Below are positions 4,433 to 58,202 of a stretch of 64,000 nucleotides of DNA, one piece after another. The stretch comes from a virus. The notes under the pieces were generated by a model. It saw only the letters and a program-made list of their open reading frames with translations, ran no database searches and was not told the DNA's origin. How positions within the stretch are numbered: position 1 is the first letter of the stretch; each line of letters starts with the position of its first letter. The stretch lies in IMG/VR virus record IMGVR_UViG_3300028841_000327. One strand, written 5' to 3'. The position numbers and the translations under genes were made by a program.

Positions 4433-4504
4433 GGAGGCGTAGTGTAGCGGCTGCACAGTGGGCTTTTACCCCATCAGGCGAGAGTTCGATCCTCTCCGCC
4501 TCCA
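4433..4504 (+). tRNA. tRNA-Lys(TTT)
   Basis: Cloverleaf, loop CTTTTAC. Confidence 0.85.
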
Positions 4505-4512
4505 CGGCACAC

Positions 4513-4585
4513 GGGTCCGAGGTGTAATGGTCGGCATAGCGAGCTCTTACCTCGACAGGAGGGGGTTCAATTCCCCCCGGACCCA
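4513..4585 (+). tRNA. tRNA-Lys(CTT)
   Basis: Cloverleaf, loop CTCTTAC. Confidence 0.85.
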
Positions 4586-4592
4586 CGATCAT

Positions 4593-4667
4593 TGGGGATT
4601 CGCCAAACGGCTAAGGCACCGGTTTCTGAGTCCGGCACTGGTGGTTCGAGTCCACCATCCCCAACCA
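4593..4667 (+). tRNA. tRNA-Gln(CTG)
   Basis: Cloverleaf, loop TTCTGAG, CCA encoded. Confidence 0.9.
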
Positions 4668-4741
4668 CTCCCGCAAGGGAACCTGCTCTCTGACAACCTG
4701 AACTTTCATCCGATCGGCGTTGCAAGCGCCGCTCGGAAACT

Positions 4742-4818
4742 GTGGCCCTCGCACCTCTGGTGAGTGCAACCGGCTGTTAACCGGTCCAAGCAGGGTTCGA
4801 TCCCCTGGGGCTACGCCA
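4742..4818 (+). tRNA. tRNA-Asn(GTT)
   Basis: Cloverleaf, loop CTGTTAA, CCA encoded. Confidence 0.85.
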
Positions 4819-4819
4819 C

Positions 4820-4894
4820 GTCCCCTACGCCTACATGGTGAGGTGCCGCTTTCGTACTGCGGAGAAGCCGGTTCGATTCCGGCAGGGGGCTCTA
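4820..4894 (+). tRNA. tRNA-Thr(CGT)
   Basis: Cloverleaf, loop TTCGTAC. Confidence 0.75.
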
Positions 4895-4897
4895 CAC

Positions 4898-4971
4898 GGT
4901 CCGGAGGCGCAACGGGTTGCGCGCTTGGTTGAAACCCAGGAGGAGTCGGTTCGAGTCCGACCTGGACCACC
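4898..4971 (+). tRNA. tRNA-Phe(GAA)
   Basis: Cloverleaf, loop TTGAAAC. Confidence 0.85.
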
Positions 4972-5042
4972 GGGGTGTCGCACAGCGGTAGTGCTCGTGC
5001 TTTGGGTGCACGATGTTGCTGGTTCGATTCCAGTCACCCCGA
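4971..5042 (+). tRNA. tRNA-Pro(TGG)
   Basis: CGGGGTG/CACCCCG, loop TTTGGGT. Confidence 0.85.
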
Positions 5043-5049
5043 CGATCAT

Positions 5050-5126
5050 GGTGGTGTGAGGGAGCAAGAGAACCCGGCCGATTGTGGATCGGTCTTCGAC
5101 GGGGGCAGTACCCGTACACCACCCCA
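5050..5126 (+). tRNA. tRNA-His(GTG), variant T-loop GGCAGTA
   Basis: G-1/C73, loop TTGTGGA. Confidence 0.75.
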
Positions 5127-5128
5127 AC

Positions 5129-5199
5129 GTCCTTGCCGAAGGTCGGCGCTGGCACTCCTAAGGCCAAGCGACGCGGTTCGATTCCGCGCAGGGACGCCA
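5129..5199 (+). tRNA. tRNA-Arg(CCT), reduced D-arm
   Basis: Loop CTCCTAA, T-arm, CCA. Confidence 0.7.
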
Positions 5200-5200
5200 T

Positions 5201-5272
5201 GCCTCGTGATGCGACTGGGGTCGCAGGCCGCCTGTCTCGCGGTTGAGACGGGTTCAATCCCCGTACGAGGCG
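5201..5272 (+). tRNA. tRNA-Asp(GTC)
   Basis: Cloverleaf, loop CTGTCTC. Confidence 0.8.
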
Positions 5273-5348
5273 CTGGCTCCCGTGAGCCTCAACACGGGTG
5301 GTGCTCCGCCGGATCAGCACCGCGTGAAATCGCGACACCCCGGCCCAT

Positions 5349-5435
5349 GGAAGATGAATCGCTCAAGGGAGCGAGCCCGGTTGCTATCCGGTGCGGTGCT
5401 TCGGCACTGGGGTTCGAGCCCTCCGTCTTCCGCCA
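5349..5435 (+). tRNA. tRNA-Ser(GCT)
   Basis: Long variable arm, loop TTGCTAT, CCA. Confidence 0.85.
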
Positions 5436-5436
5436 C

Positions 5437-5508
5437 ACGGACGAGGCCATGGCGGCCGAGCGGTTTCCAACTCCGCGGGACCAGGTTCGATTCCTGGCGT
5501 CCGTGCCA
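5437..5508 (+). tRNA. tRNA-Gly(TCC), atypical D and anticodon arms
   Basis: Loop TTTCCAA, T-arm, CCA. Confidence 0.6.
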
Positions 5509-5597
5509 GCGCATGCCGAGGCTGCGTGACAGAGCGAGCGGCACCATCAAGGTCGCGAACGTGGGATCGCCAGCACGAGCCGCGCTCTGGTGATGAC

Positions 5598-5671
5598 GGG
5601 CTCGTAGCTTGAAGGGCAAGCACTTCGCTGGCAGCGAGGAGTCAGGGGTTCGATTCCCCTCGGGTCCACCA
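5598..5671 (+). tRNA. tRNA-Ala(GGC)
   Basis: G3:U70, loop CTGGCAG, CCA. Confidence 0.9.
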
Positions 5672-5676
5672 ACATC

Positions 5677-5758
5677 GCCGAGGTGGCGGAACGGCAGACG
5701 CAGCGAGCTCAAACCTCGCCGCCCACGTGGCATGCGGGTTCAACTCCCGCTCTCGGCA
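5677..5758 (+). tRNA. tRNA-Leu(CAA)
   Basis: Long variable arm, loop CTCAAAC. Confidence 0.9.
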
Positions 5759-5762
5759 CTTC

Positions 5763-5835
5763 GGGGAAGTCGTACAACGGAAGTACCACCGCTTTGCGAG
5801 CGGATGATGCCAGTTCGACTCTGGTCTTCTCCACC
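5763..5835 (+). tRNA. tRNA-Ala(TGC)
   Basis: G3:U70, loop TTTGCGA. Confidence 0.85.
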
Positions 5836-5897
5836 GCGACTTCGGTGAGCGGCCACGTGCGTTTCGCGCGTCGCTGCCTCATCGCTGTCGCGCTCCC

Positions 5898-5970
5898 GGG
5901 CTCGTAGCTTGAAGGGCAAGCACCTCGTTCGCAATGAGGAGTTGGGGGTTCGATTCCCCTCGAGTCCACC
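5898..5970 (+). tRNA. tRNA-Ala(CGC)
   Basis: Near-duplicate of the tRNA at 5598; loop TTCGCAA. Confidence 0.85.
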
Positions 5971-6044
5971 CAGCTGGCGTGACCACTTCGTTCGCGGGCG
6001 CCAACGTGCCGAAGAGCGGAGTGGTGGCGTCAGCTGGACCACAT

Positions 6045-6119
6045 GCCGGTCAGGTCCCCGTGGGGGGGCGCGTCCTTGGTACGGACGAGGGGCGGGTTCG
6101 ACTCCCGCGACTGGCTCAA
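6045..6119 (+). tRNA. tRNA-Thr(GGT)
   Basis: GCCGGTC/GACTGGC, loop TTGGTAC. Confidence 0.7.
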
Positions 6120-6290
6120 GCCACAATGCCGGGATGATAAGGCCTCGGTAAGCCTTGTGCGTTAGCGAAGTGGAAACGCACGCCGTCACCCGCGTCACGG
6201 AGCCCCAGGCGCGGGGATGGGGGTTCAACCCCTCGTTGGGTGGCTACGTGCCCTTCACGAGCCGGTCTGCGGACGCGCAGACCGTTCCCT

Positions 6291-6362
6291 GCGGGTGCGG
6301 CGCGATGGTCGCGCGCGGGCCTTCCAAGCCCTGAGGTGCCGGTTCGAGTCCGGTCACTCGCT
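6291..6362 (+). tRNA. tRNA-Gly(TCC)
   Basis: Cloverleaf, loop CTTCCAA. Confidence 0.85.
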
Positions 6363-6376
6363 CTGATGTTGGTCAC

Positions 6377-6406
6377 TTGACGGCATGGCCCGCACATGGG
6401 TAACTT
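6377..6406 (+). promoter_or_regulatory. sigma70-type promoter with spacer motif
   Basis: TTGACG-18-TAACTT. Confidence 0.55.
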
Positions 6407-6411
6407 CGGGC

Positions 6412-7005
6412 ATGTCCGAACCGAAGGTCCTGGGAGAAGTCATCGGCGACGCCATGGAGAAGATGGACGCTCCGGCGGACGTCATCGCCGGGATCCGAGC
6501 TGCGGCACAGCGGCACAGCCTGCCTCAGCGGCACTGCCCGCCTCACGCGACCGCGTGCGTGGTGCTGGTGCAGAAGGAAGGTGACCCGTCGGTCTGGATC
6601 GCCAAGGATCTCGCGCGGCCGTTCCGGATGGAGCGGGTCGTCCTCACGCTCAAGGTGGCTCGAGCGGCGCTGACGGGCAGCGAGTGGCTCGAGCAGATCA
6701 TGGTCGGCAAGACGGCGGTGCTGGCGGCCCCGTTGCCGCTCAGGGTCGTCGCAGGCCCGACGGACGAGATCAAGAGTCGCCTCACGCAGCAGGAGCTGGA
6801 GCTGGCGGCCGAGGGCCCCACCCAGCGGTGGCTCGAGGTCGCTGCGGAGGTCGATGCGGAGGTGGGCGCGATGCTGGGGGCGCTGATCGGTGGAGAAGAC
6901 TGGGCCGAGAAGGGGGACTCCATCGAGTTCCACTTCGACCCAGCATCCGCGTTGCAGATCGAGAACATGGCGCTGTTCGGCGCCGCAGTGGTGAAGGAGA
7001 GTTGA
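6412..7005 (+). CDS. Hypothetical protein
   Basis: ORF between tRNA clusters. Confidence 0.6.
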   Translation: MSEPKVLGEVIGDAMEKMDAPADVIAGIRAAAQRHSLPQRHCPPHATACVVLVQKEGDPSVWIAKDLARPFRMERVVLTLKVARAALTGSEWLEQIMVGKTAVLAAPLPLRVVAGPTDEIKSRLTQQELELAAEGPTQRWLEVAAEVDAEVGAMLGALIGGEDWAEKGDSIEFHFDPASALQIENMALFGAAVVKES

Positions 7006-7007
7006 CT

Positions 7008-7093
7008 GGAGGGTAATGCTCAGTGGCGGGCAACCGGTCTCGAAAACCGGGTCACGGTGAAACGTGGGGGTTCGACTCCTCTACCCTCCGCAA
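7008..7093 (+). tRNA. tRNA-Ser(CGA)
   Basis: Long variable arm, loop CTCGAAA. Confidence 0.85.
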
Positions 7094-7094
7094 T

Positions 7095-7167
7095 GCGTGT
7101 GAGGCCGACTGGTGAGGCACTTCCTTGCCAAGGAAGGACAGGACGGGTTCGATTCCCGCCACACGCT
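7095..7167 (+). tRNA. tRNA-Gly(GCC)
   Basis: Cloverleaf, loop TTGCCAA. Confidence 0.85.
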
Positions 7168-7169
7168 CG

Positions 7170-7445
7170 ATGGCCAACAAGTCCGATGGGTTGCTGCGCG
7201 ACCTCGTGAACGTGCTCGACTCGATCGAGCGGTGCAAGAGCTGCCAGCACCTGCTCAACGAGGAGGCGGCCGACGAGTGCCACCACGGGTCGCTCGAGCG
7301 GGCGCTGGGTCGCGCGAGAACGCACCTGGCGAGCGGCGTCCTGCGCGAGCTCGCCCCGGTAGACTCCTCCACGCTGGACGAGGCTGGGCCTTCTAAGCCC
7401 GCGCCGCCGGGTTCGATTCCTGGGGAGGGGGCGACGCACCCATAG
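7170..7445 (+). CDS. Small hypothetical protein; 3' end overlaps tRNA-Arg
   Basis: ORF with phage-like codon use in its first two thirds. Confidence 0.4.
   Translation: MANKSDGLLRDLVNVLDSIERCKSCQHLLNEEAADECHHGSLERALGRARTHLASGVLRELAPVDSSTLDEAGPSKPAPPGSIPGEGATHP
7364..7431 (+). tRNA. tRNA-Arg(TCT), degenerate
   Basis: CTCCTCC/GGAGGGG, loop CTTCTAA, T-arm. Confidence 0.6.
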
Positions 7446-7512
7446 GCTAGGTGGTAAGGCCACGCGCCTTTCAAGCGCGGGATGCTGGGTTCGACTCCCG
7501 CTGGGTGCACAA
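7436..7512 (+). tRNA. tRNA-Glu(TTC)
   Basis: Cloverleaf, loop CTTTCAA. Confidence 0.85.
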
Positions 7513-7513
7513 C

Positions 7514-7586
7514 GACGTGGTGCTCCAGAGAGCGCCGCGGTCTGCAAAACCGCGTAGATGGGGTGCAACTCCCCTCCACGTCTCCA
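7514..7586 (+). tRNA. tRNA-Cys(GCA)
   Basis: Loop CTGCAAA, U73, CCA. Confidence 0.75.
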
Positions 7587-7587
7587 C

Positions 7588-7662
7588 GGTCCCGTCGGCT
7601 AAGGGTCAGGCCACCGCTCTCTCACAGCGGAAATGGGGGTTCGACTCCCCTCGGGATCGCCA
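7588..7662 (+). tRNA. tRNA-Glu(CTC)
   Basis: Cloverleaf, loop CTCTCAC, CCA. Confidence 0.9.
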
Positions 7663-7760
7663 GCTCCTGCTCCGGTGCAAGAGGCACCTACCAGGAACCG
7701 TTCGGCCGAGCGGTTCTTGGACCAGGTCCCGAGCAGGCATGGTCTGAACATGAGGCGGCG

Positions 7761-8357
7761 ATGGCCGTTTCCGTGGACAGCATGGCACCATTTGCCCCCA
7801 CCGGTGGATCCGGCGCCGACACTACGAATGTTGGTTGCGGTCGTTCAATTCGACCTGGGGGTGCTACGATGCCGGGGATGGCCACCATGCCCGCCACCCC
7901 CTCCGCTGCTCTCGCCAAGAAGCCGATCCCGTGGGGGACCATCGCCCTCGTGGGTGGGTTCGCCGTCGGTGGCATCGTGCTCTACCGGGCCTACAAGAAG
8001 AAGCAGGCCGCTGGCCTCGGTGCGGCCGCCGTGCCGCCGAAGAAGAAGGTGACCACGGTGCCGACGGTCTCGCTGCCCAAGCCGAGCAAGCTGCCGGGTG
8101 GGGTGACGACGTCGCCGGGCGCCGAGCCAGTGCGGCCCCCGGGTGCGTACGGCCCGAGCCCCTCGAGCACGTCGGATGGCGCCGACGACTACAACGCCGG
8201 TGCGCAGGTGGGGCGTGCGGACGGCCTCGCGGCGATCGCGACGCTGAGCATCGACCCGTCGGCGAACCCGAGCGACCTCATGGTCCACTACGACACCGAC
8301 CAGTCCGATGCCTGGAAGAAGGGCTACAAGACGGCGTTCAACAACGCGATCGGCTGA
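7761..8357 (+). CDS. Membrane-anchored Pro-rich hypothetical protein
   Basis: TM WGTIALVGGFAVGGIVLY followed by KKK. Confidence 0.55.
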   Translation: MAVSVDSMAPFAPTGGSGADTTNVGCGRSIRPGGATMPGMATMPATPSAALAKKPIPWGTIALVGGFAVGGIVLYRAYKKKQAAGLGAAAVPPKKKVTTVPTVSLPKPSKLPGGVTTSPGAEPVRPPGAYGPSPSSTSDGADDYNAGAQVGRADGLAAIATLSIDPSANPSDLMVHYDTDQSDAWKKGYKTAFNNAIG

Positions 8358-8359
8358 GA

Positions 8360-8431
8360 CCCCCGTCCAGCGGCTCTGGCGCCGACCCTCCGAAGGTCGG
8401 GTAGGTGGTTCAACTCCACCACGGGGGGCCG
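8360..8431 (+). tRNA. tRNA-Arg(CCG), reduced D-arm
   Basis: Loop CTCCGAA, T-arm. Confidence 0.7.
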
Positions 8432-8501
8432 CAGGGAAGCCAAGAGGCTGGCTGGGGCCCATAACCCCGGCGACCAGGGGCAGTACCTGGCCCTGCATCC
8501 A
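8430..8501 (+). tRNA. Initiator-like tRNA-Met(CAT), variant T-loop GGCAGTA
   Basis: C1:A72 mismatch, GGG/CCC anticodon stem, loop CCCATAA. Confidence 0.7.
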
Positions 8502-8502
8502 C

Positions 8503-8573
8503 GGCTGCGTGTCTCGGAGACGGGCGCTCCTCATAAGGGTGACCACGAGGGTTCGACTCCCTTCGCAGCCACT
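8503..8573 (+). tRNA. tRNA-Met/Ile2(CAT), reduced D-arm
   Basis: Loop CTCATAA, T-arm. Confidence 0.7.
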
Positions 8574-8645
8574 GGGGTGTCCCTCGGAGGGCGTCTCGGC
8601 CTTGAACCGGGTATGCGTCTGGTTCGACACCAGCCACCCCAACCA
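8573..8645 (+). tRNA. tRNA-Gln(TTG), reduced D-arm
   Basis: Loop CCTTGAA, CCA. Confidence 0.65.
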
Positions 8646-8649
8646 CCAT

Positions 8650-8724
8650 CAGCCTGTAGCGCACTGGTAGCGCGCTCCCTTGGGGAGGGAGAGGTCGCGA
8701 GTTCGATTCTCGCCAGGCTGACCA
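8650..8724 (+). tRNA. tRNA-Pro(GGG)
   Basis: Cloverleaf, loop TTGGGGA, CCA. Confidence 0.9.
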
Positions 8725-8797
8725 ACGGCCCGCACATGGGTCGTGTATGGGTTGCAGAGCCCACCTCGAGCATGTAGGCTCGAGTTCGTGAACGAGA

Positions 8798-8869
8798 CGG
8801 CGTGTAGGCCAGTGGTAGGTCACTCGGTTCGGGACCGAGATTTCGGGAGTTCGATTCTCCCCACGCCGA
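8798..8869 (+). tRNA. tRNA-Pro(CGG)
   Basis: Cloverleaf, loop TTCGGGA. Confidence 0.9.
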
Positions 8870-14444: not shown

Positions 14445-14619
14445 GGTGGACGCGCTGATGCAGGTGCTCGAGATCACGCTCATCGGCACCTACGACGAGG
14501 TGCACGCTGCGGACGAGGTCGGTCGGCGCGACTACGGCCGCAAGATCGTCGGCGAGGTCATGTACCGGCAGATGCTGCCGAGCGTCGGCCTGCGGATCTT
14601 GCGCGGCGGTGAGCCGTGA
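14425..14619 (+). CDS. Small hypothetical protein
   Basis: Coupled ORF. Confidence 0.4.
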   Translation: MSMPDSEVDALMQVLEITLIGTYDEVHAADEVGRRDYGRKIVGEVMYRQMLPSVGLRILRGGEP

Positions 14620-15578
14620 AGCCGCCCGACGATCCGCATCGGGCGGCCCGCGAGGACTGGCTCTTGGCGATGGCCGTGGGGGACGCGGCCTGCATCTCGA
14701 CCGAGTTCGTGAAGCCGGACGACCCGATCGTGGTGAAGACGCTCACGACACTGGACGTGGGTCGGTTCGTGGGGTCGACGGCCCTCGAACTGCCGCCGGG
14801 CCGGTACACCGACGACACGCAGATGACGATCGCCGTGGTGGAGTCGCTGCTCGAGGCGCAGATGAGCATCCCTGGCCTCGCGAACGCGGTCGTGCGCGTC
14901 TTCAACCGCGATCGCCGCCCGGGGTACGCGCGGGGATTCCAGTCCGTTCTGGCGACCGTGTCGGATGGGCAGGAGCTGATGACCCGCCTCTACGGCCGCA
15001 ACAACTCGGAGAAGAACGGAGCGGCGATGCGCGCCATCCCCTACGGGCTCTTGGGCTATGCCGTCGACGCGACGGCGGTGCATGCGCAACTCGGGGCCAA
15101 GCTCACCCACGACAGCCTCAGCGGTTGCTGGTCGTCCATGGCCGTGGCGATGCTGGCGTCGATGGCGAAGGCTGGCATGGACCGAACCACGTTCGCCGGT
15201 GAGCTGCGTCGCAGGATGCTCATGGTTACGGGCGACACGCGCAGGTTCGGTCAGGTGCCCGACCCGCTCCGGTGGCTCTGCGAACCCTACTACGGTCGCG
15301 TCGAGGGCGGAGGCGCCGACAGCGACAGCCTGGCGTGGCTGACGGTTCGGGCGGTCCTGCGCGTCGTCCACGAGGCGCAGAGCGTCCGCCACGCCATCGA
15401 GCTCACCATCAAGCAAGGCGGGGACACCGACACGGTGGGAGCGCTGTCGTGTGGGATCTTGGCGCTCACCGGGATGCCCCTCGAGCCGTGGATGGTCGAA
15501 CAGATCGAGGACGGCCGCTTCGGACGAGACTACCTGCGGGCCTTGGGTGCGCGGATGCTGGGAGGGACCAGCGGCTAA
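14616..15578 (+). CDS. ADP-ribosylglycohydrolase (DraG/ARH family)
   Basis: GDA, YTDDTQMT, NGAAMRA, GGDTDTVGA motifs. Confidence 0.9.
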   Translation: MKPPDDPHRAAREDWLLAMAVGDAACISTEFVKPDDPIVVKTLTTLDVGRFVGSTALELPPGRYTDDTQMTIAVVESLLEAQMSIPGLANAVVRVFNRDRRPGYARGFQSVLATVSDGQELMTRLYGRNNSEKNGAAMRAIPYGLLGYAVDATAVHAQLGAKLTHDSLSGCWSSMAVAMLASMAKAGMDRTTFAGELRRRMLMVTGDTRRFGQVPDPLRWLCEPYYGRVEGGGADSDSLAWLTVRAVLRVVHEAQSVRHAIELTIKQGGDTDTVGALSCGILALTGMPLEPWMVEQIEDGRFGRDYLRALGARMLGGTSG

Positions 15579-48761: not shown

Positions 48762-49430
48762 ATGCCGTTCAAGGTCGGACCCGATGGCAAGCAGTTGCGT
48801 GGCCTGGCCTGCGTGCCCCCCGAGGAGCGCAAGAAGATCGCGAGCAAGGGGCAGAAGGCAGCTCGAGCGAAGGGCGGCTGCTACCAGTTCGACCACGAGA
48901 CGGCGGTCCGAGCGGGCCACAAGGGTGGGGCAGCTCCGAAGCGTCGCTTGAAGACGATCGAGGAGATCACGGAGCGGACGGAGGTGGCGATCGCCTCCGC
49001 GAAGCACGACGCGAACGAGATGCGCCGTCTGATCGGCACCATCGCGGAAGAAGTCGCCGAGGTCGAGCAGATGGCGGCGGCCGCCGAAGGCCGTCCAGTC
49101 TCGCCCGAGCAGGCGGCCGCGGCGGAGGATGCGCTTGTCAAGTGGACCCGTGGGCAGCTCCCAGCGCCGGTGGTGACCGCGCTCGGCCGCTTCGGTGGAG
49201 CTCAGGACGAGTTCGCGCGTCAGGCTCGGGTGGCCGAGAAGCTCCGCCAGCAGCTGGCCGAGGTGCAGCGTCGCTCTGCGATGGAGGGCGCGCCTCCGAG
49301 TCCGGCCGTGGAGACGCAGGCGATCGCGCGCGACGTCGCCAAGATGGAAAAGGCGATCGAGGCGACGCCTCCGTCGCAGTCGGTCTCGCTGTTCCGTCGC
49401 CTGATGGGTGGCCTCTCGAACGTCGACTGA
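48762..49430 (+). CDS. KGG-repeat (general stress protein-like) domain fused to a helical domain
   Basis: PEERKKIASKGQKA....G..YQFD.E.A.RAGHKGG. Confidence 0.7.
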   Translation: MPFKVGPDGKQLRGLACVPPEERKKIASKGQKAARAKGGCYQFDHETAVRAGHKGGAAPKRRLKTIEEITERTEVAIASAKHDANEMRRLIGTIAEEVAEVEQMAAAAEGRPVSPEQAAAAEDALVKWTRGQLPAPVVTALGRFGGAQDEFARQARVAEKLRQQLAEVQRRSAMEGAPPSPAVETQAIARDVAKMEKAIEATPPSQSVSLFRRLMGGLSNVD

Positions 49431-49727: not shown

Positions 49728-49786
49728 GGCGGCGCTCGCAATGACCCTTGCGCGTTGGTAGAGCGTGATCTACTAGTGATCTCTGT

Positions 49787-49870
49787 CGGCGAACTGCGGT
49801 CGCCGTAACTCGAGGTCGTGGTTCACGGCACTCGAGAACCATCTTCGGATGGACCTCTCGCAATGCGAGA
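49787..49870 (+). ncRNA. Four-hairpin structured RNA or leader preceding the array
   Basis: CGGCGA/TCGCCG; CTCGAGGTCGTG/CACGGCACTCGAG; CCATC-TTCG-GATGG; TCTCGC/GCGAGA. Confidence 0.55.
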
Positions 49871-49908
49871 CGTAAGCCCACAACATTGCTGATGTGATTC
49901 GGTTACCT

Positions 49909-51171
49909 GTTGAGCGGCCTGCGTGGTGTGTGGATTCGTTCAGGCGCGCAGACCAGCACCCAGCGTACGCCCACCCGTTCCGTTGAGCGGCCTGCGTGGG
50001 GTGTGGATTCGTTCAGGACCTGGGGTCCGGTGCGGAAGGTCCGCTCGCCGCTTGGTTGAGCGGCCTGCGTGGTGTGTGGATTCGTTCAGGGCCCGACAGC
50101 TCTTCTGGGTCGCGGCCTGCGCTGTGGATTCGTTTGAGCGGCCCGCGTTGTGTGGATTCGTTCAGGGCGATCACATCGTCGACCAGCTTCTCGCGTGGTG
50201 TGGATTCGCTCAGGGCTCTGCGCGAACGAAGCTCGTTCAGGGGGGAAGGCCGACAGTTCTTCTAGGTCGCGGCCTGCGCGGTTGTGGATTCGTTCAGGGC
50301 CATGACCTAGACCAGCTCGCGGGTTGAGCGGCCTGCATGGTGTGTGGATTCGTTCAGGGCCACTCGGTCACCTCGTCAACCATTGCCTGCGTGGTGTGTG
50401 GATTCGCTCAGGGGCCTTCTCGTGTATGGCGTCCGGTTCCCAGTGAGCGGCCTGCGTGGTGTGCGGCGGATTCAGGTTCGCGCTCTTGGCCAGCGTCCGC
50501 ACGAAACTCGCCGGTTGAGCGGCCTGCGTGGTGTGTGGATTCGTTCAGGGGGAGCGGCTGCGAGCCCCGCGTGAAGTCGATGGCATGTTGAGCGGCCTGC
50601 GTGGTGTGTGGATTCGTTCAGGCAGCCTGCGTGGTGTGTGGATTCGTTCAGGCTCGAACTTCACGCTCGTTCGCAGGCCCGCGCTGTCGGTTGAGCGGCC
50701 TGCGTGGTTCAGGGTCATGCCGTCGCTGTCGTTCAGGAACTGCGTGCACGATGCCGGTCCTCTTGCGTGGTGTGTGGATTTGTTCAGGCACGACACCTGA
50801 CACAGTACCCAGCTCGACTGCTGAGTGGCCTGCGTGGTGTGTGGATTCGTTCAGGCTGGCGGGCCACCGACGGCTCGATCACGACGCACGACGCAGGAGG
50901 GCGTCCACGAATAGGCTCTGGACTTCGGGGTGCGTGGTGTGTGGATTTCGTTCAGGTGGCGCGACGTGAGCCCGCCTTCGCCCCATGTGGATTCGTTCAG
51001 GCCTCGAGCGCGATGGTTTACGGTCAGGCTCAATGGCGAACACCCCTGGAGTTTTTAGCGGCCTGCGCGGTGTGTGGATTGGTTCAGGCCCACTGGCTCT
51101 GCGGAAAAACGCCATAGCGTTGTTGGGCTGCGTTCGTTCAGGAGTACGTCTAGGGTAGCGGCCTGGTCAGG
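49909..51171 (+). CRISPR. Orphan CRISPR-like array, repeat GTTGAGCGGCCTGCGTGGTGTGTGGATTCGTTCAGG (36 bp), progressively degenerate
   Basis: Full repeats at 49909, 49982, 50055, 50323, 50514, 50587; 37-bp unique spacers at 49945, 50018, 50550, 50653; about a dozen truncated copies; no cas gene in the window. Confidence 0.85.
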
Positions 51172-51722
51172 GAGGGGACGCTTCGATGGATGACCGCAGG
51201 AGCCCCGCCGGGATAGCCTTGTGGAGGATCGTCAGGACGTCGCGATGCAGTCCACCTCCGATTGTGTGTCGATCGTAGGGTGTCCGCTCAGGCTATCTTG
51301 CCTCACGAAGATTCGCGCAGGGTCGTCGCGCACATGCTGGGTCGCCCAAGGGCTCTGCGTCAGGGGTCGCGGGTTCCTGTAGATGCAGGCGCAACGGCCA
51401 GGCCAATCCGATCTGCGTGTGTGGGGTTCTCAGGGCGAAGGCGCACTACCGCAGGGACCGCTGACCCCGGAGCTCGAAGCGCAGGTGACGGAGTCACGGA
51501 TCTTGGGCGAGCGGGCCTGAGGTTCTACGCACGTGCGGTACACAGCAGGGGTCCGGGCCAGTTCGCCGATACGTGCAGGACCCGCCAAGGCGTTGCGAGC
51601 AGGACACGCGCGCGCAGGTTGTACGTGACCGCTAGGCAGGGCACCAGTATCAAGCACATGGCAGGTGGACGAATCACGGCTTGGCGGGCTAGACCGCGGC
51701 CTGATTCACAAGACCCCGCAGG
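51172..51722 (+). repeat. Vestigial array extension with recurring CAGG
   Basis: CAGG mostly every 20-36 nt; remnants such as CTGCGTGTGTGGGGTTCTCAGG at 51413-51434. Confidence 0.6.
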
Positions 51723-51747: not shown

Positions 51748-52254
51748 TCAGCCGCTGACGAAGTCGCGAATCTCGGCAGGGCCGAGGCCAGACAGTGCCC
51801 CCACGACGACCCAGTGTCGTGCGCGTGGGTCACGAGTCGGGATGGTCGCCAGCTCGGGGTTCGCCTCGGTCAGCTCGTCGTAGAGTCCGTCCACCAGCAC
51901 CTGCCGCTCGAGGTGGTCGCCCGCCTCGGCGAGCGCCATCTGGGCGCGGTCGGCGTCCACTGGGGAGACCGACAGGTGGTAGTGGTGCGACCCCATTGCG
52001 ATGGACGGGCGGCCGCGAGGCGCCCAGCGTCGCACGAGGTCGAGCCACAGCTCACGGTCAACCCGGAACGGTGTCCTGGTCGCCTGAGGGTCACAGTTCG
52101 CGCATGCGCACCCCACGGGGTGATGCACGACCAGCTTCTGGAGCAACGGCATCGTGAGCCCGACAGCCGCGAGTGCGGTGACGACCATGGAGTCGATCTT
52201 GGCGTCGGCCGCCACCTGGACGCCGAGGGCAGAGAGCTCGTCGAAGCGGGTCAC
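51748..52254 (-). CDS. Hypothetical protein
   Basis: ORF converging on the array. Confidence 0.5.
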   Translation of the reverse strand: MTRFDELSALGVQVAADAKIDSMVVTALAAVGLTMPLLQKLVVHHPVGCACANCDPQATRTPFRVDRELWLDLVRRWAPRGRPSIAMGSHHYHLSVSPVDADRAQMALAEAGDHLERQVLVDGLYDELTEANPELATIPTRDPRARHWVVVGALSGLGPAEIRDFVSG

Positions 52255-56938: not shown

Positions 56939-57240
56939 CCGCCGTCAGGCTTCTTGCCGCTCCGCTGCTGGCTCTGGATGACGTCCATGTGCCGCTTGTA
57001 GATGGTCGCGACGTTGTGCTGCATCTCCTCGAGCGTGAGTCCGAGCTCGAGCGACTTGGCGACGAAGAGGCTGAGGAACGCGGTGTTCGAGGCGACCTCG
57101 AAGTGCCGATCGAACTCCTCTGCCGAGAGAGTCTTCTCCGAACGGCCCTGCTGGATCTTGATGGTCCCGAGCGCGCTCTGGATCGGAGTCAGGATCCGGG
57201 AGGCGCGCATCAGGATCGCTTGCTGTTCTTCGCGGGTCAT
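56935..57240 (-). CDS. Hypothetical protein
   Basis: Coupled ORF. Confidence 0.5.
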   Translation of the reverse strand: MTREEQQAILMRASRILTPIQSALGTIKIQQGRSEKTLSAEEFDRHFEVASNTAFLSLFVAKSLELGLTLEEMQHNVATIYKRHMDVIQSQQRSGKKPDGG

Positions 57241-58202
57241 TGGTCCTCCACCACACCACTCGTGTCTTCGAGAGAGTCGTCGGCGTCCTTCTTCCCGAAC
57301 GCCCGTCCACGGATGGGACATCTCGGCGCCTTGCCATCGACGGGCACGCCGAGGATCCAGCGGAGGAGCTTGACGGTGATGCGCCGCTCCTCGGGCGTCA
57401 GGCCGTCGTTGTGCGGGTCGCCCTCGCCGGTCTTGAGGGAGAGGAAGGCGCGGTTGATGCGGCTCTTGGTGGGGCGACGCGCGATCTCGAGGGGCGGCTT
57501 CTCGGGCTTGCTGCCGAACGCAGCGCTGCCGATGCGCACCTTCACCGGGTCGGGCTCGTTGTTGGAGATCAGCTGCTCAAGCCACTGCTCCTGCTCGACG
57601 GGCGCGTAGTTGGCGAGCTTGTGGGCCTCCGAGAGCTGGAACATGGGCGTGTTCTTGCGCCACAGCTCCCGGAGCGGCTGGATGAGGCTCTCCCAGGCCA
57701 CGGTCGCCTTGGCGATGCGGGTCGCCGAAGCGTTGTTCACGTTCTGCCGGCTAAAGATCAGTTCCACAGCCTTCTCGAGGGAGAGGCCGTGCTGCACGCG
57801 GAGCAGCGACACGCCCTCGGCGAGCTCGAAGTCCTTCGGTGGCAGCTGGCTGTTCTCGGCGAAGTTCTCGACGGCCTCGTCGAAGTCGGTCAGCGCGTTG
57901 CTGAACACGACGAACACGGGGTAGTCGCGGCGGTCCTTGTGGAGGACGTCCATCGCCGTCATGCGGCGATATCCAGCGATCAGCCGGTAGATCGCCCCGT
58001 CCTTGCGGGGCGGGATCCGCCGCACGCTGACCGGCATGTGCTGCCCGTGACTCCCGATCTCGATGGCGAGTTCGAGCGTGCTCGGTGCCGCAGGGTCAAT
58101 CGCGCGGCCTCCACGGGACAGATTCCGACCATGATCGACAAAAATCTGATCGCGTCGAACGACGGCCGTATCACGCGGCAAGGTCTCGGGCTCTGGTGCC
58201 AC
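57237..58202 (-). CDS. ParB/Srx N-terminal domain protein
   Basis: GQHMPVSVR...YRLIAGYRRMTAM...EN. Confidence 0.7.
   Translation of the reverse strand: MAPEPETLPRDTAVVRRDQIFVDHGRNLSRGGRAIDPAAPSTLELAIEIGSHGQHMPVSVRRIPPRKDGAIYRLIAGYRRMTAMDVLHKDRRDYPVFVVFSNALTDFDEAVENFAENSQLPPKDFELAEGVSLLRVQHGLSLEKAVELIFSRQNVNNASATRIAKATVAWESLIQPLRELWRKNTPMFQLSEAHKLANYAPVEQEQWLEQLISNNEPDPVKVRIGSAAFGSKPEKPPLEIARRPTKSRINRAFLSLKTGEGDPHNDGLTPEERRITVKLLRWILGVPVDGKAPRCPIRGRAFGKKDADDSLEDTSGVVEDQ

What the first reader, a model, noticed from the sequence alone, without database searches (positions are those of the whole stretch)
49909..51171. Cas-less CRISPR-like array in which deletions consistently spare the repeat 3' end
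Seen: 36-bp repeats with 37-bp spacers at the left end. Downstream units lose the spacer 3' part and repeat 5' part but keep (TGCGTGG)TGTGGATTCGTTCAGG, leaving spacers of about 18-33 nt. One unit is duplicated and diverged (50091 versus 50248), and one spacer is fully deleted (50623). No cas, RuvC or HNH gene flanks the array, and I do not recognise the repeat. Known: viruses carry orphan or mini-arrays that hijack host Cas or act as RNA anti-CRISPRs, and type V mature guides consist of the repeat 3' part plus the spacer 5' ~20 nt. Inference: the polarity suggests selection for minimal repeat-3'+spacer guides, i.e. a still-functional guide cassette of an unassigned RNA-guided system.
Basis: partly seen in the sequence, partly recalled or inferred. 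Interest (0 to 1): 0.85.

Follow-up and report, generated by a model that had tools for sequence, protein, structure and literature searches.

The report
Cas-less phage CRISPR array, one-sided erosion
An uncultured high-GC bioreactor phage carries a large CRISPR array with no cas genes nearby, a strongly conserved leader and spacers that differ between close relatives. Its older units are eroded from one side only, down to a 5-letter GCAGG tag. This suggests the phage still uses the locus, but the Cas partner and the targets are unknown.

Summary
A 36-nt repeat with 37-nt spacers (period 73) starts at 49909. It lies in a 2.3-kb non-coding gap between convergent genes of a tRNA-rich phage known only from bioreactor and wetland metagenomes.

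- **Erosion.** Most units are shortened. Repeat fragments that keep only the 3' end outnumber those that keep only the 5' end: 10:1 in the window, 11:1 and 5:1 in two related phage lineages. An unbiased deletion model gives about 1:1. The array runs on to about 51722 as mini-units punctuated only by (G/T)CAGG, which is tenfold enriched on one strand.
- **Signs of function.** About 91 nt of the leader are identical across lineages whose neighbouring non-coding DNA is only 74% identical. Close relatives carry different canonical units next to the leader. Metatranscriptome contigs cover the leader and repeat 1.
- **No cas partner.** No cas gene was recognised in about 110 kb of this phage and close relatives.
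- **No source or target.** The repeat matches nothing in Rfam, GTDB species genomes, IMG/VR or the JGI subset. No protospacer was found.

The retained 3' part has no stable hairpin, it is the part that differs between lineages, and it shrinks to 5 nt.

The scan also noted the same array on another record.

The parts
48762..49430 (+). Left flanking gene (222 aa, KGG-like N-terminus, no family assignment). It is not a cas gene.
   Evidence: A homologue (37% aa identity) flanks an array-free site in the distant relative L019.
49783..49876 (+). Conserved leader core with four consecutive hairpins or palindromes. It may be a promoter/operator or a structured 5' leader RNA.
   Evidence: 100% identical between the window and L015, and 92/94 with L117. 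The leader DNA just upstream is 74% identical and third codon positions 68%. Fold z-score -2.9 on the + strand. A metatranscriptome contig starts at 49853.
49887..49908 (+). Degenerate partial copy of the repeat 3' half ('R0'), abutting repeat 1 with no spacer.
   Evidence: alignment to consensus positions 16-30. In L117 this segment differs, and by eye it resembles that lineage's own variant repeat 3' half.
49909..50090 (+). Three intact 36-nt repeats with two 37-nt spacers. These leader-proximal units are absent from relative L015.
50091..51171 (+). Main body with about 22 units, mostly shortened across the spacer-3'/repeat-5' junction. Two canonical 37-nt spacers lie at 50477-50586. One unit is duplicated (50093 and 50250).
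51172..51722 (+). Vestigial tail of about 18 mini-units of 13-64 nt, each ending in (G/T)CAGG.
   Evidence: 17 CAGG against 5.7 expected (maximum 15 in 2000 simulations). CCTG is at background level. GCAGG occurs 12 times against 1.2 expected. Relatives L015 and L014 have the same kind of tail, and W/L015 differences are largely indels, several of them of whole units.
51748..52254 (-). Right flanking gene (168 aa, unknown function), convergent with the left flank.

Best explanation
This is a genuine CRISPR array carried by a phage that has no recognisable cas genes of its own. It is still in use.

**Shown**
- The 36/37-nt unit structure.
- A leader core under strong purifying selection.
- Lineage-specific canonical units next to the leader, and some inside the array.
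- A shared, collinear backbone of older units.
- One-sided erosion of those older units.

**Inferred**
- The array is transcribed rightwards from the conserved leader.
- New units are added by an adaptation machinery supplied in trans, most likely the host's. The guides or decoys are likewise used by a Cas effector supplied in trans.
- Small deletions accumulate with time. They survive only if they fall in the zone that does not matter for the RNA product, namely the spacer 3' part plus the next repeat's 5' part.
- Each surviving unit therefore reduces to 'repeat 3' end + first ~15-30 nt of spacer'. That is the layout of a crRNA with a 5' handle, or of the short-spacer regulatory crRNA-like RNAs (Cracr) recently described in phages.
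- The far tail, with GCAGG tags only, is probably past function. It is being lost unit by unit through slippage between the tags.
For: - **Array anatomy and chance:**
- **Non-coding gap between convergent genes:**
- **Phage context:** 20 tRNAs, DnaB, a baseplate-like protein and many PHROG-only genes.
- **Lineage-specific insertion:** a distant relative has the two flanking genes about 150 nt apart with no repeats.
- **Leader conservation:** 49783-49876 is 100% and 98% identical in relatives whose adjacent leader DNA is 96% and 74% identical. The probability of so few changes is about 1e-12.
- **Turnover:** the window and L015 have flanks about 97% identical. They share only units 6, 7, 18, 19, 22 and 25-42, in the same order. 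Their leader-proximal units differ and have intact repeats.
- **Polarity:** fragments with the 3' end only versus the 5' end only number 10:1, 11:1 and 5:1. A symmetric deletion simulation scored with the same detector gives 5.6 versus 6.3, and 1 of 150 runs was as skewed.
- **Tail enrichment:** GCAGG is the top-enriched 5-mer in all three tails, while GTTG is not enriched.
- **Independent deletions:** the same ancestral unit (spacer CTGGCGGGCCACCGACGG) was cut differently in three lineages. Each kept the spacer's first 18-19 nt and the terminal CAGG.
- **RNA:** a metatranscriptome holds an 86-nt contig over the leader and repeat 1 (49853-49938) at depth 13.7, against about 3 for neighbouring genes. 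Three RNA runs from three studies hold part of this stretch.
- **Precedent:** phage Cracr arrays have degenerate repeats and 21-24-nt spacers (10.1101/2024.10.29.618823). Viral mini-arrays and RNA anti-CRISPRs are also described (PMC11656645, PMC10651486).
Against: - No host or any other array with this repeat was found. This covers 185,579 GTDB species genomes, IMG/VR, the JGI subset and Rfam.
- In two samples the repeat-only unitig has depth 33-35 against phage depth 5-11. That fits the phage's own few perfect copies, so no large host array with identical repeats shows up there (weak evidence).
- No protospacer was found in about 110 kb of this phage family, in 50,697 phage records, or in IMG/VR for four young spacers.
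- Lineage-specific units also lie inside the array, and the order of three shared spacers differs in L014. Rearrangement or ectopic insertion must therefore be invoked.
- Shared units are only 86-93% identical between the window and L015, less than the flanks. The spacers themselves are not visibly constrained.
- A 4-5-nt tag is too short for any known handle.
- The RNA evidence consists of contigs without strand or ends, and DNA carry-over is not excluded.
Confidence: 0.5

Rival explanations
1. RNA decoy or regulator rather than interference guides. The transcript supplies many copies of the repeat's 3' handle, with short or irrelevant spacers. These soak up or reprogramme a host Cas effector, in the manner of a Racr or a Cracr array. 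On this reading the spacers need not target any mobile element.
For: - Retention of the repeat 3' part with shortened spacers.
- No protospacers found.
- Low conservation of shared spacers.
- Published phage Cracr arrays have 21-24-nt pseudo-spacers and degenerate repeats, and Racrs are solitary repeat units.
Against: - Known Cracr arrays have 2-3 spacers, not about 45 units.
- They were recognised by matches to host CreA/CreR and to cas promoters, which cannot be tested here because no host system was found.
- Canonical 37-nt units that turn over next to the leader look like ordinary acquisition.
- A decoy should conserve the Cas-binding part across lineages, yet positions 21-31 differ at 5 sites.
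Confidence: 0.2
2. The one-sided erosion is a mutational bias, not selection. Breaks arise preferentially at the spacer/repeat-5' junction, for instance from abortive half-site integration by a Cas1-Cas2 integrase at internal repeats. They are repaired after nibbling on both sides. Slippage between the abundant GCAGG tags then removes whole units and always leaves one tag. The older part of the array could then be functionless.
For: - Mean loss is the same on both sides of the junction: 15.0 nt of spacer and 14.9 nt of repeat over 33 units.
- 22 of 33 shortened units lost sequence on both sides of that junction.
- Several W/L015 tail differences are whole-unit indels bounded by CAGG.
- The tail evolves faster than the leader.
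Against: - Losses on the two sides are uncorrelated (rho 0.02).
- Units that had already lost the junction sequence were shortened again at the same place (W unit 6 versus L015 unit 6). A junction-specific nuclease does not predict this.
- No integrase is encoded nearby.
- The leader's strong conservation shows that at least part of the locus is under selection.
Confidence: 0.2
3. The array serves an unrecognised RNA-guided effector encoded by the phage itself, and 'repeat 3' end + ~20 nt' is its minimal guide.
For: - Most of the phage's proteins have no family assignment.
- No host counterpart of the repeat was found.
- The repeat-unitig depth is compatible with phage copies only.
Against: - No ORF over 583 aa lies in the window, and the longest ORF is DnaB. 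Nothing matched Cas, RuvC or TnpB-type profiles among the flanking genes and the larger unassigned ORFs scanned. Precomputed Pfam hits on the fetched relative contigs show none over about 110 kb.
- The flanking genes are also present at the array-free site of a distant relative.
- The retained 3' part has no stable structure.
Confidence: 0.07
4. The locus does not function as CRISPR. It is a DNA-level array of protein-binding sites, such as a centromere, iterons or an origin, built from the 16-nt motif and the CAGG tags.
For: - A weak ParB-like protein lies 6 kb away.
- The CAGG enrichment is strand-specific.
- The conserved leader contains palindromes.
Against: - Unique, length-constrained 37-nt spacers at an exact 73-nt period.
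- Unrelated spacers at the same positions in 97%-identical relatives.
- A leader-to-tail decay gradient.
- These are hallmarks of CRISPR, not of tandem binding sites, whose spacers are copied along with the sites.
Confidence: 0.03

Closest known systems
Virus-borne orphan CRISPR arrays and mini-arrays (archaeal SPV1/SPV2 mini-arrays; arrays of huge phages lacking some or all cas modules), as reviewed in PMC11656645
   Same: A CRISPR array in a viral genome without an adjacent cas operon, presumed to depend on Cas proteins supplied in trans.
   Different: Mini-arrays have 1-2 spacers, repeats identical to a known host system, and spacers that hit related viruses. Here there are about 45 units, no known host repeat and no hits to related phage DNA.
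Phage Cracr arrays (crRNA-like regulatory RNAs; bioRxiv 10.1101/2024.10.29.618823)
   Same: Phage-encoded, array-like units with degenerate repeats and shortened spacers (21-24 nt) that keep the 5' handle.
   Different: Described arrays have 2-3 units and were recognised by matches to host CreA/CreR and to cas promoters. Here there are dozens of units in a graded series from canonical units to 5-nt tags, and no target is known.
RNA anti-CRISPRs / solitary repeat units (Racr; PMC10651486)
   Same: Viral repeat-derived RNAs without cas genes, in which only the Cas-binding part of the repeat needs to be kept.
   Different: Racrs are single repeat units that mimic a known host repeat. This locus has a leader, canonical spacers and turnover.
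Ordinary decay at the leader-distal end of chromosomal CRISPR arrays
   Same: Repeats degenerate away from the leader, and whole units are lost.
   Different: From general knowledge, the degeneracy usually affects the terminal repeat. Here about 35 units are eroded, nearly always across the same junction, and the pattern recurs in three lineages.

Membership tests
CRISPR array | Direct repeats of 23-50 nt separated by unique spacers of similar, constrained length | tested here: met
   36-nt repeat, 37-nt spacers and a 73-nt period at five places. The spacers are unrelated to each other apart from one duplication.
CRISPR array | Conserved leader on one side and degenerate repeats at the other end | tested here: met
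   The leader core is 98-100% identical across lineages. Decay increases rightwards.
CRISPR array | Spacer content differs between close relatives, with new units near the leader | tested here: met
   The window and L015 differ in their leader-proximal units and share a collinear older backbone. Some lineage-specific units are internal.
CRISPR array | Associated cas genes | tested here: not met
   No Cas family was found by Pfam, PHROGs, PADLOC or NCBIfam scans of the flanking and larger ORFs. Precomputed Pfam hits on the fetched contigs show none over about 110 kb of this phage and relatives. Novel proteins cannot be excluded.
CRISPR array | Spacers match mobile-element protospacers | tested here: not met
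   No match in the phage's own family, in INPHARED phages, or in IMG/VR for four spacers.
CRISPR array | Processed crRNAs | not testable with these tools
   Only unstranded metatranscriptome contigs over the leader and repeat 1 are available.
Viral mini-array / Racr (host-mimicking repeat) | Repeat identical or near-identical to a CRISPR repeat of the host | tested here: inconclusive
   No exact or two-copy degenerate match in the GTDB species genomes, the JGI subset, IMG/VR or Rfam. The host is unknown, and the source metagenomes could not be pattern-searched.
Cracr array | Short pseudo-spacers that partially match a host cas or CreT promoter | not testable with these tools
   Short spacers are present, but no host locus is available to compare.
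   The 3' 20 nt folds with MFE 0 kcal/mol, and the variant repeat with -1.9. Neither is better than shuffles.

The most novel reading that the evidence does not exclude
The one-sided erosion is a natural deletion scan. It shows that a very short 5' tag (UCAGG/GCAGG) plus about 15-25 nt is sufficient for the RNA's function. On that reading the phage carries a roughly 45-unit multiplexed array of minimal guides or regulatory crRNA-like RNAs. These would serve either a host Cas system of an undescribed repeat family or an unrecognised effector.
Probability: 0.12. Interest if true: 0.85.

Novelty: new variant of a known kind. Interest (0 to 1): 0.6.

Why it matters
Cas-less arrays in phages are known, but mostly as tiny mini-arrays or single repeats. 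This one is large. Its leader is under strong purifying selection. Three diverged lineages give a comparative record of how units are gained and lost.

If the one-sided erosion reflects selection, it maps which part of each unit the phage needs. It would also link ordinary crRNAs to the short-spacer regulatory RNAs (Cracr) recently found in phages. If instead it reflects a junction-specific mutational process, it would be a new observation about how arrays decay. Either way, the repeat belongs to no catalogued family, so finding the Cas partner would be informative.

Tried and rejected
- **Exact repeat searches.** IMG/VR, GTDB species genomes and the JGI metagenome subset gave nothing.
- **Degenerate two-copy pattern.** It returned only chance or coding hits, many in Nocardia. 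None resembled the repeat.
- **Rfam.** Nothing at gathering or permissive thresholds.
- **Nucleotide searches against 50,697 phage records.** No match apart from one chance-level hit.
- **Four young spacers against IMG/VR.** No match.
- **Spacers against the phage's own family and its own leader.** Only chance-level matches.
- **The conserved leader block in IMG/VR.** No match.
- **Whole-genome tools.** No genome is held for this window or for the 125.7-kb relative. I walked outwards with exact-protein look-ups instead.
- **Symmetric-resection idea.** Rejected as a simple model, because losses on the two sides are uncorrelated.
- **CsrA-sponge idea for the CAGG tags.** I considered and dropped this from my own knowledge of CsrB-type RNAs. 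The following base is not conserved, so there is no GGA motif (unit starts).
- **Whole-repeat hairpin.** Its stability is no better than shuffles (z -0.7 and -1.6). Four of the five lineage differences are compatible with that pairing, which is suggestive only.
- **Sigma-70 promoter scan of the leader.** No site found.

Full report
**What is there**

The window is a 67% GC phage genome fragment. It has 20 tRNA genes, a DnaB helicase, a baseplate-like protein, methyltransferases and many small genes without family assignment. It has no close relative among 50,697 phage records; the best DnaB match is 41% identical. It comes from bioreactor metagenomes.

Between the stop of a + strand gene (49430) and the stop of a - strand gene (51748) lies 2.3 kb with no codon-position GC bias. 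Within it, the 36-nt repeat GTTGAGCGGCCTGCGTGGTGTGTGGATTCGTTCAGG alternates with 37-nt spacers at an exact 73-nt period at 49909-50090 and 50477-50622. The 3' 16-mer occurs 15 times, all on the + strand, against 0.02 expected.
- The duplicated unit at 50093 and 50250 is 91% identical.
- The near-complete spacer loss at 50623 leaves 2 nt.
- Shortened units keep a 3' suffix of the repeat.

**Not an assembly artefact**

A JGI contig is 100% identical over 20.7 kb that include the array. Logan unitigs break 29 nt into repeat 1, as expected for a 36-nt repeat at k = 31. Four runs hold 98-99% of the region's 31-mers.

**Relatives**

Exact-protein look-ups of flanking genes gave three further states of the locus.
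- **L015.** This lies on a 125.7-kb JGI contig whose flanks are about 97% identical to the window. The runs X5 and X6 hold the same lineage. It has the same leader, the same repeat and an equally eroded array, but mostly different spacers.
- **L014 and L117.** Their flanks are about 83% identical in nucleotides. They carry a variant repeat, GTTGAGCGGCCTGCGTGGTGCGTGAAGTTGCTCAGG, with the same erosion pattern.
- **L019 and L020.** Their flanking proteins are 50% and 37% identical. The two genes lie about 150 nt apart with no repeats.

The array is therefore an insertion specific to one clade of this phage family, and it has persisted through at least 17% nucleotide divergence.

**Dynamics**

The window and L015 share a collinear backbone, window units 6, 7, 18, 19, 22 and 25-42. 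Between these lie lineage-specific blocks. The units next to the leader differ between the two and have intact repeats and canonical spacers, as expected for recent acquisition. Some lineage-specific canonical units are internal, and three spacers shared with L014 lie in a different order. Ectopic insertion, differential loss or rearrangement also occurs.

**Polarity**

I scored every repeat-like fragment with one unbiased local aligner. The counts below compare fragments that keep the 3' end but not the 5' end with the converse.

| Array | 3' end only | 5' end only |
|---|---|---|
| Window | 10 | 1 |
| L015 | 11 | 1 |
| L014 | 5 | 1 |
| Symmetric random-deletion simulation (mean) | 5.6 | 6.3 |

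Only 1 of 150 simulated arrays was as skewed as the real ones.

The array does not end at 51171. Up to about 51722 the sequence consists of 13-64-nt mini-units, each ending in (G/T)CAGG:
- CAGG occurs 17 times against 5.7 expected.
- CCTG is at background level.
- GCAGG occurs 12 times against 1.2 expected and is the top-enriched 5-mer in the tails of all three lineages.
- The repeat's 5' end, GTTG, is not enriched.

This confirms and extends another first-stage note on the CAGG tail.

Differences between the window and L015 tails are largely indels. Several are of whole CAGG-bounded units. The same ancestral unit (spacer CTGGCGGGCCACCGACGG) was cut differently in three lineages. Each time the first 18-19 nt of the spacer and the terminal CAGG survived.

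**Is the locus functional?**

The leader gives the clearest answer. Positions 49783-49876 are 100% identical in L015 and 92/94 identical in L117. The 350 nt upstream are 96% and 74% identical, and third codon positions of the neighbouring gene are 68% identical. This block folds into four hairpins, with z = -2.9.

The 22 nt between this block and repeat 1 are a degenerate copy of the repeat's 3' half. By eye, the copy in L117 follows that lineage's own repeat variant.

A metatranscriptome holds an 86-nt contig covering 49853-49938 at depth 13.7, against about 3 for nearby genes. Three RNA runs from three studies hold part of this stretch. These are unstranded contigs, so they suggest transcription but do not prove it.

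**What could not be found**

- No Cas family appeared among the flanking genes and the larger unassigned ORFs scanned with Pfam, PHROGs, PADLOC or NCBIfam. Precomputed Pfam hits on the fetched contigs show none from about 30 kb upstream of the window to the end of the 125.7-kb relative contig, about 110 kb in all.
- The largest proteins are DnaB, two methyltransferases, a 1292-aa DUF6094 protein and unassigned proteins in what looks like a structural-gene block.
- The repeat has no match in Rfam, 185,579 GTDB species genomes, IMG/VR or the JGI subset.
- No protospacer was found.
- In X5 and X6 the repeat-only unitig depth (33-35) equals a few phage copies. No abundant host array with identical repeats is visible there.

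**Mechanism**

My best reading (about 0.5) is a phage-borne, trans-dependent CRISPR array that is still transcribed and still receiving units. On this reading, deletions persist only in the spacer-3'/repeat-5' zone, because the RNA product needs the repeat's 3' end and the start of the spacer.

This matches the layout of crRNAs with a 5' handle and of the short-spacer phage Cracr RNAs. It does not identify the Cas type. The retained 3' part lacks a stable hairpin. Positions 21-31 are the only part of the repeat that differs between lineages. The final remnant is only 5 nt.

The main rival is a mutational bias centred on the junction. It is supported by equal mean losses on both sides, 15.0 and 14.9 nt. 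It is weakened by the lack of correlation between the two sides and by repeated erosion after the junction is gone.

A decoy or regulator reading, a phage-autonomous effector and a DNA-binding-site array are less likely, for the reasons given under the rival explanations.

**Verdict**

The polarity is real. The functional inference is plausible but unproven. This is a new variant of the known class of cas-less viral CRISPR arrays. The same array was also noted by the scan on another record.

Noticed in passing
window 49783-49876: A block of about 91 nt with four hairpins or palindromes, including CCATC-TTCG-GATGG and CTCGAG...CTCGAG. It is essentially invariant across phage lineages whose surrounding non-coding DNA is only 74% identical. 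It could be a promoter/operator or a structured RNA in its own right.
   Followed up: partly
window 49887-49908 and L117:5740-5760: A spacer-less partial repeat directly upstream of repeat 1. By eye, its sequence changes in step with each lineage's repeat 3' half.
   Followed up: partly
repeat positions 21-31 (e.g. window 49929-49939 versus L014 repeat copies): The two repeat variants differ at 5 positions, all in the 3' half. Four of them remain compatible with a whole-repeat hairpin (G-U to G-C, G-C to G-U, or a new C-G pair). The fold's stability is not better than shuffles.
   Followed up: partly
window 4433-8869, 26010-26197, 33060-33220: Twenty tRNA genes in three clusters, which is unusual density for a 64-kb phage segment.
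   Followed up: no
L113:18337-20498 (about 30 kb upstream of the window start): A 1292-aa protein with an N-terminal DUF6094 domain. I suspect a large DarB-like methyltransferase/helicase anti-restriction protein, but did not check.
   Followed up: no
window 57237-58202 (-): Weak ParB/RepB-like N-terminal similarity, below curated cut-offs. Together with the DnaB helicase, whose matches include P1 Ban at 39% identity, it hints at a plasmid-like lifestyle.
   Followed up: no
window 14616-15578 and 26953-27549: An ADP-ribosylglycohydrolase-family protein and a small stand-alone HNH endonuclease. Neither is linked to the array.
   Followed up: no
L019:1742-1894: A distant relative has the same convergent gene pair with only about 150 nt between the genes and no repeats. 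This marks the empty insertion site of the array.
   Followed up: yes
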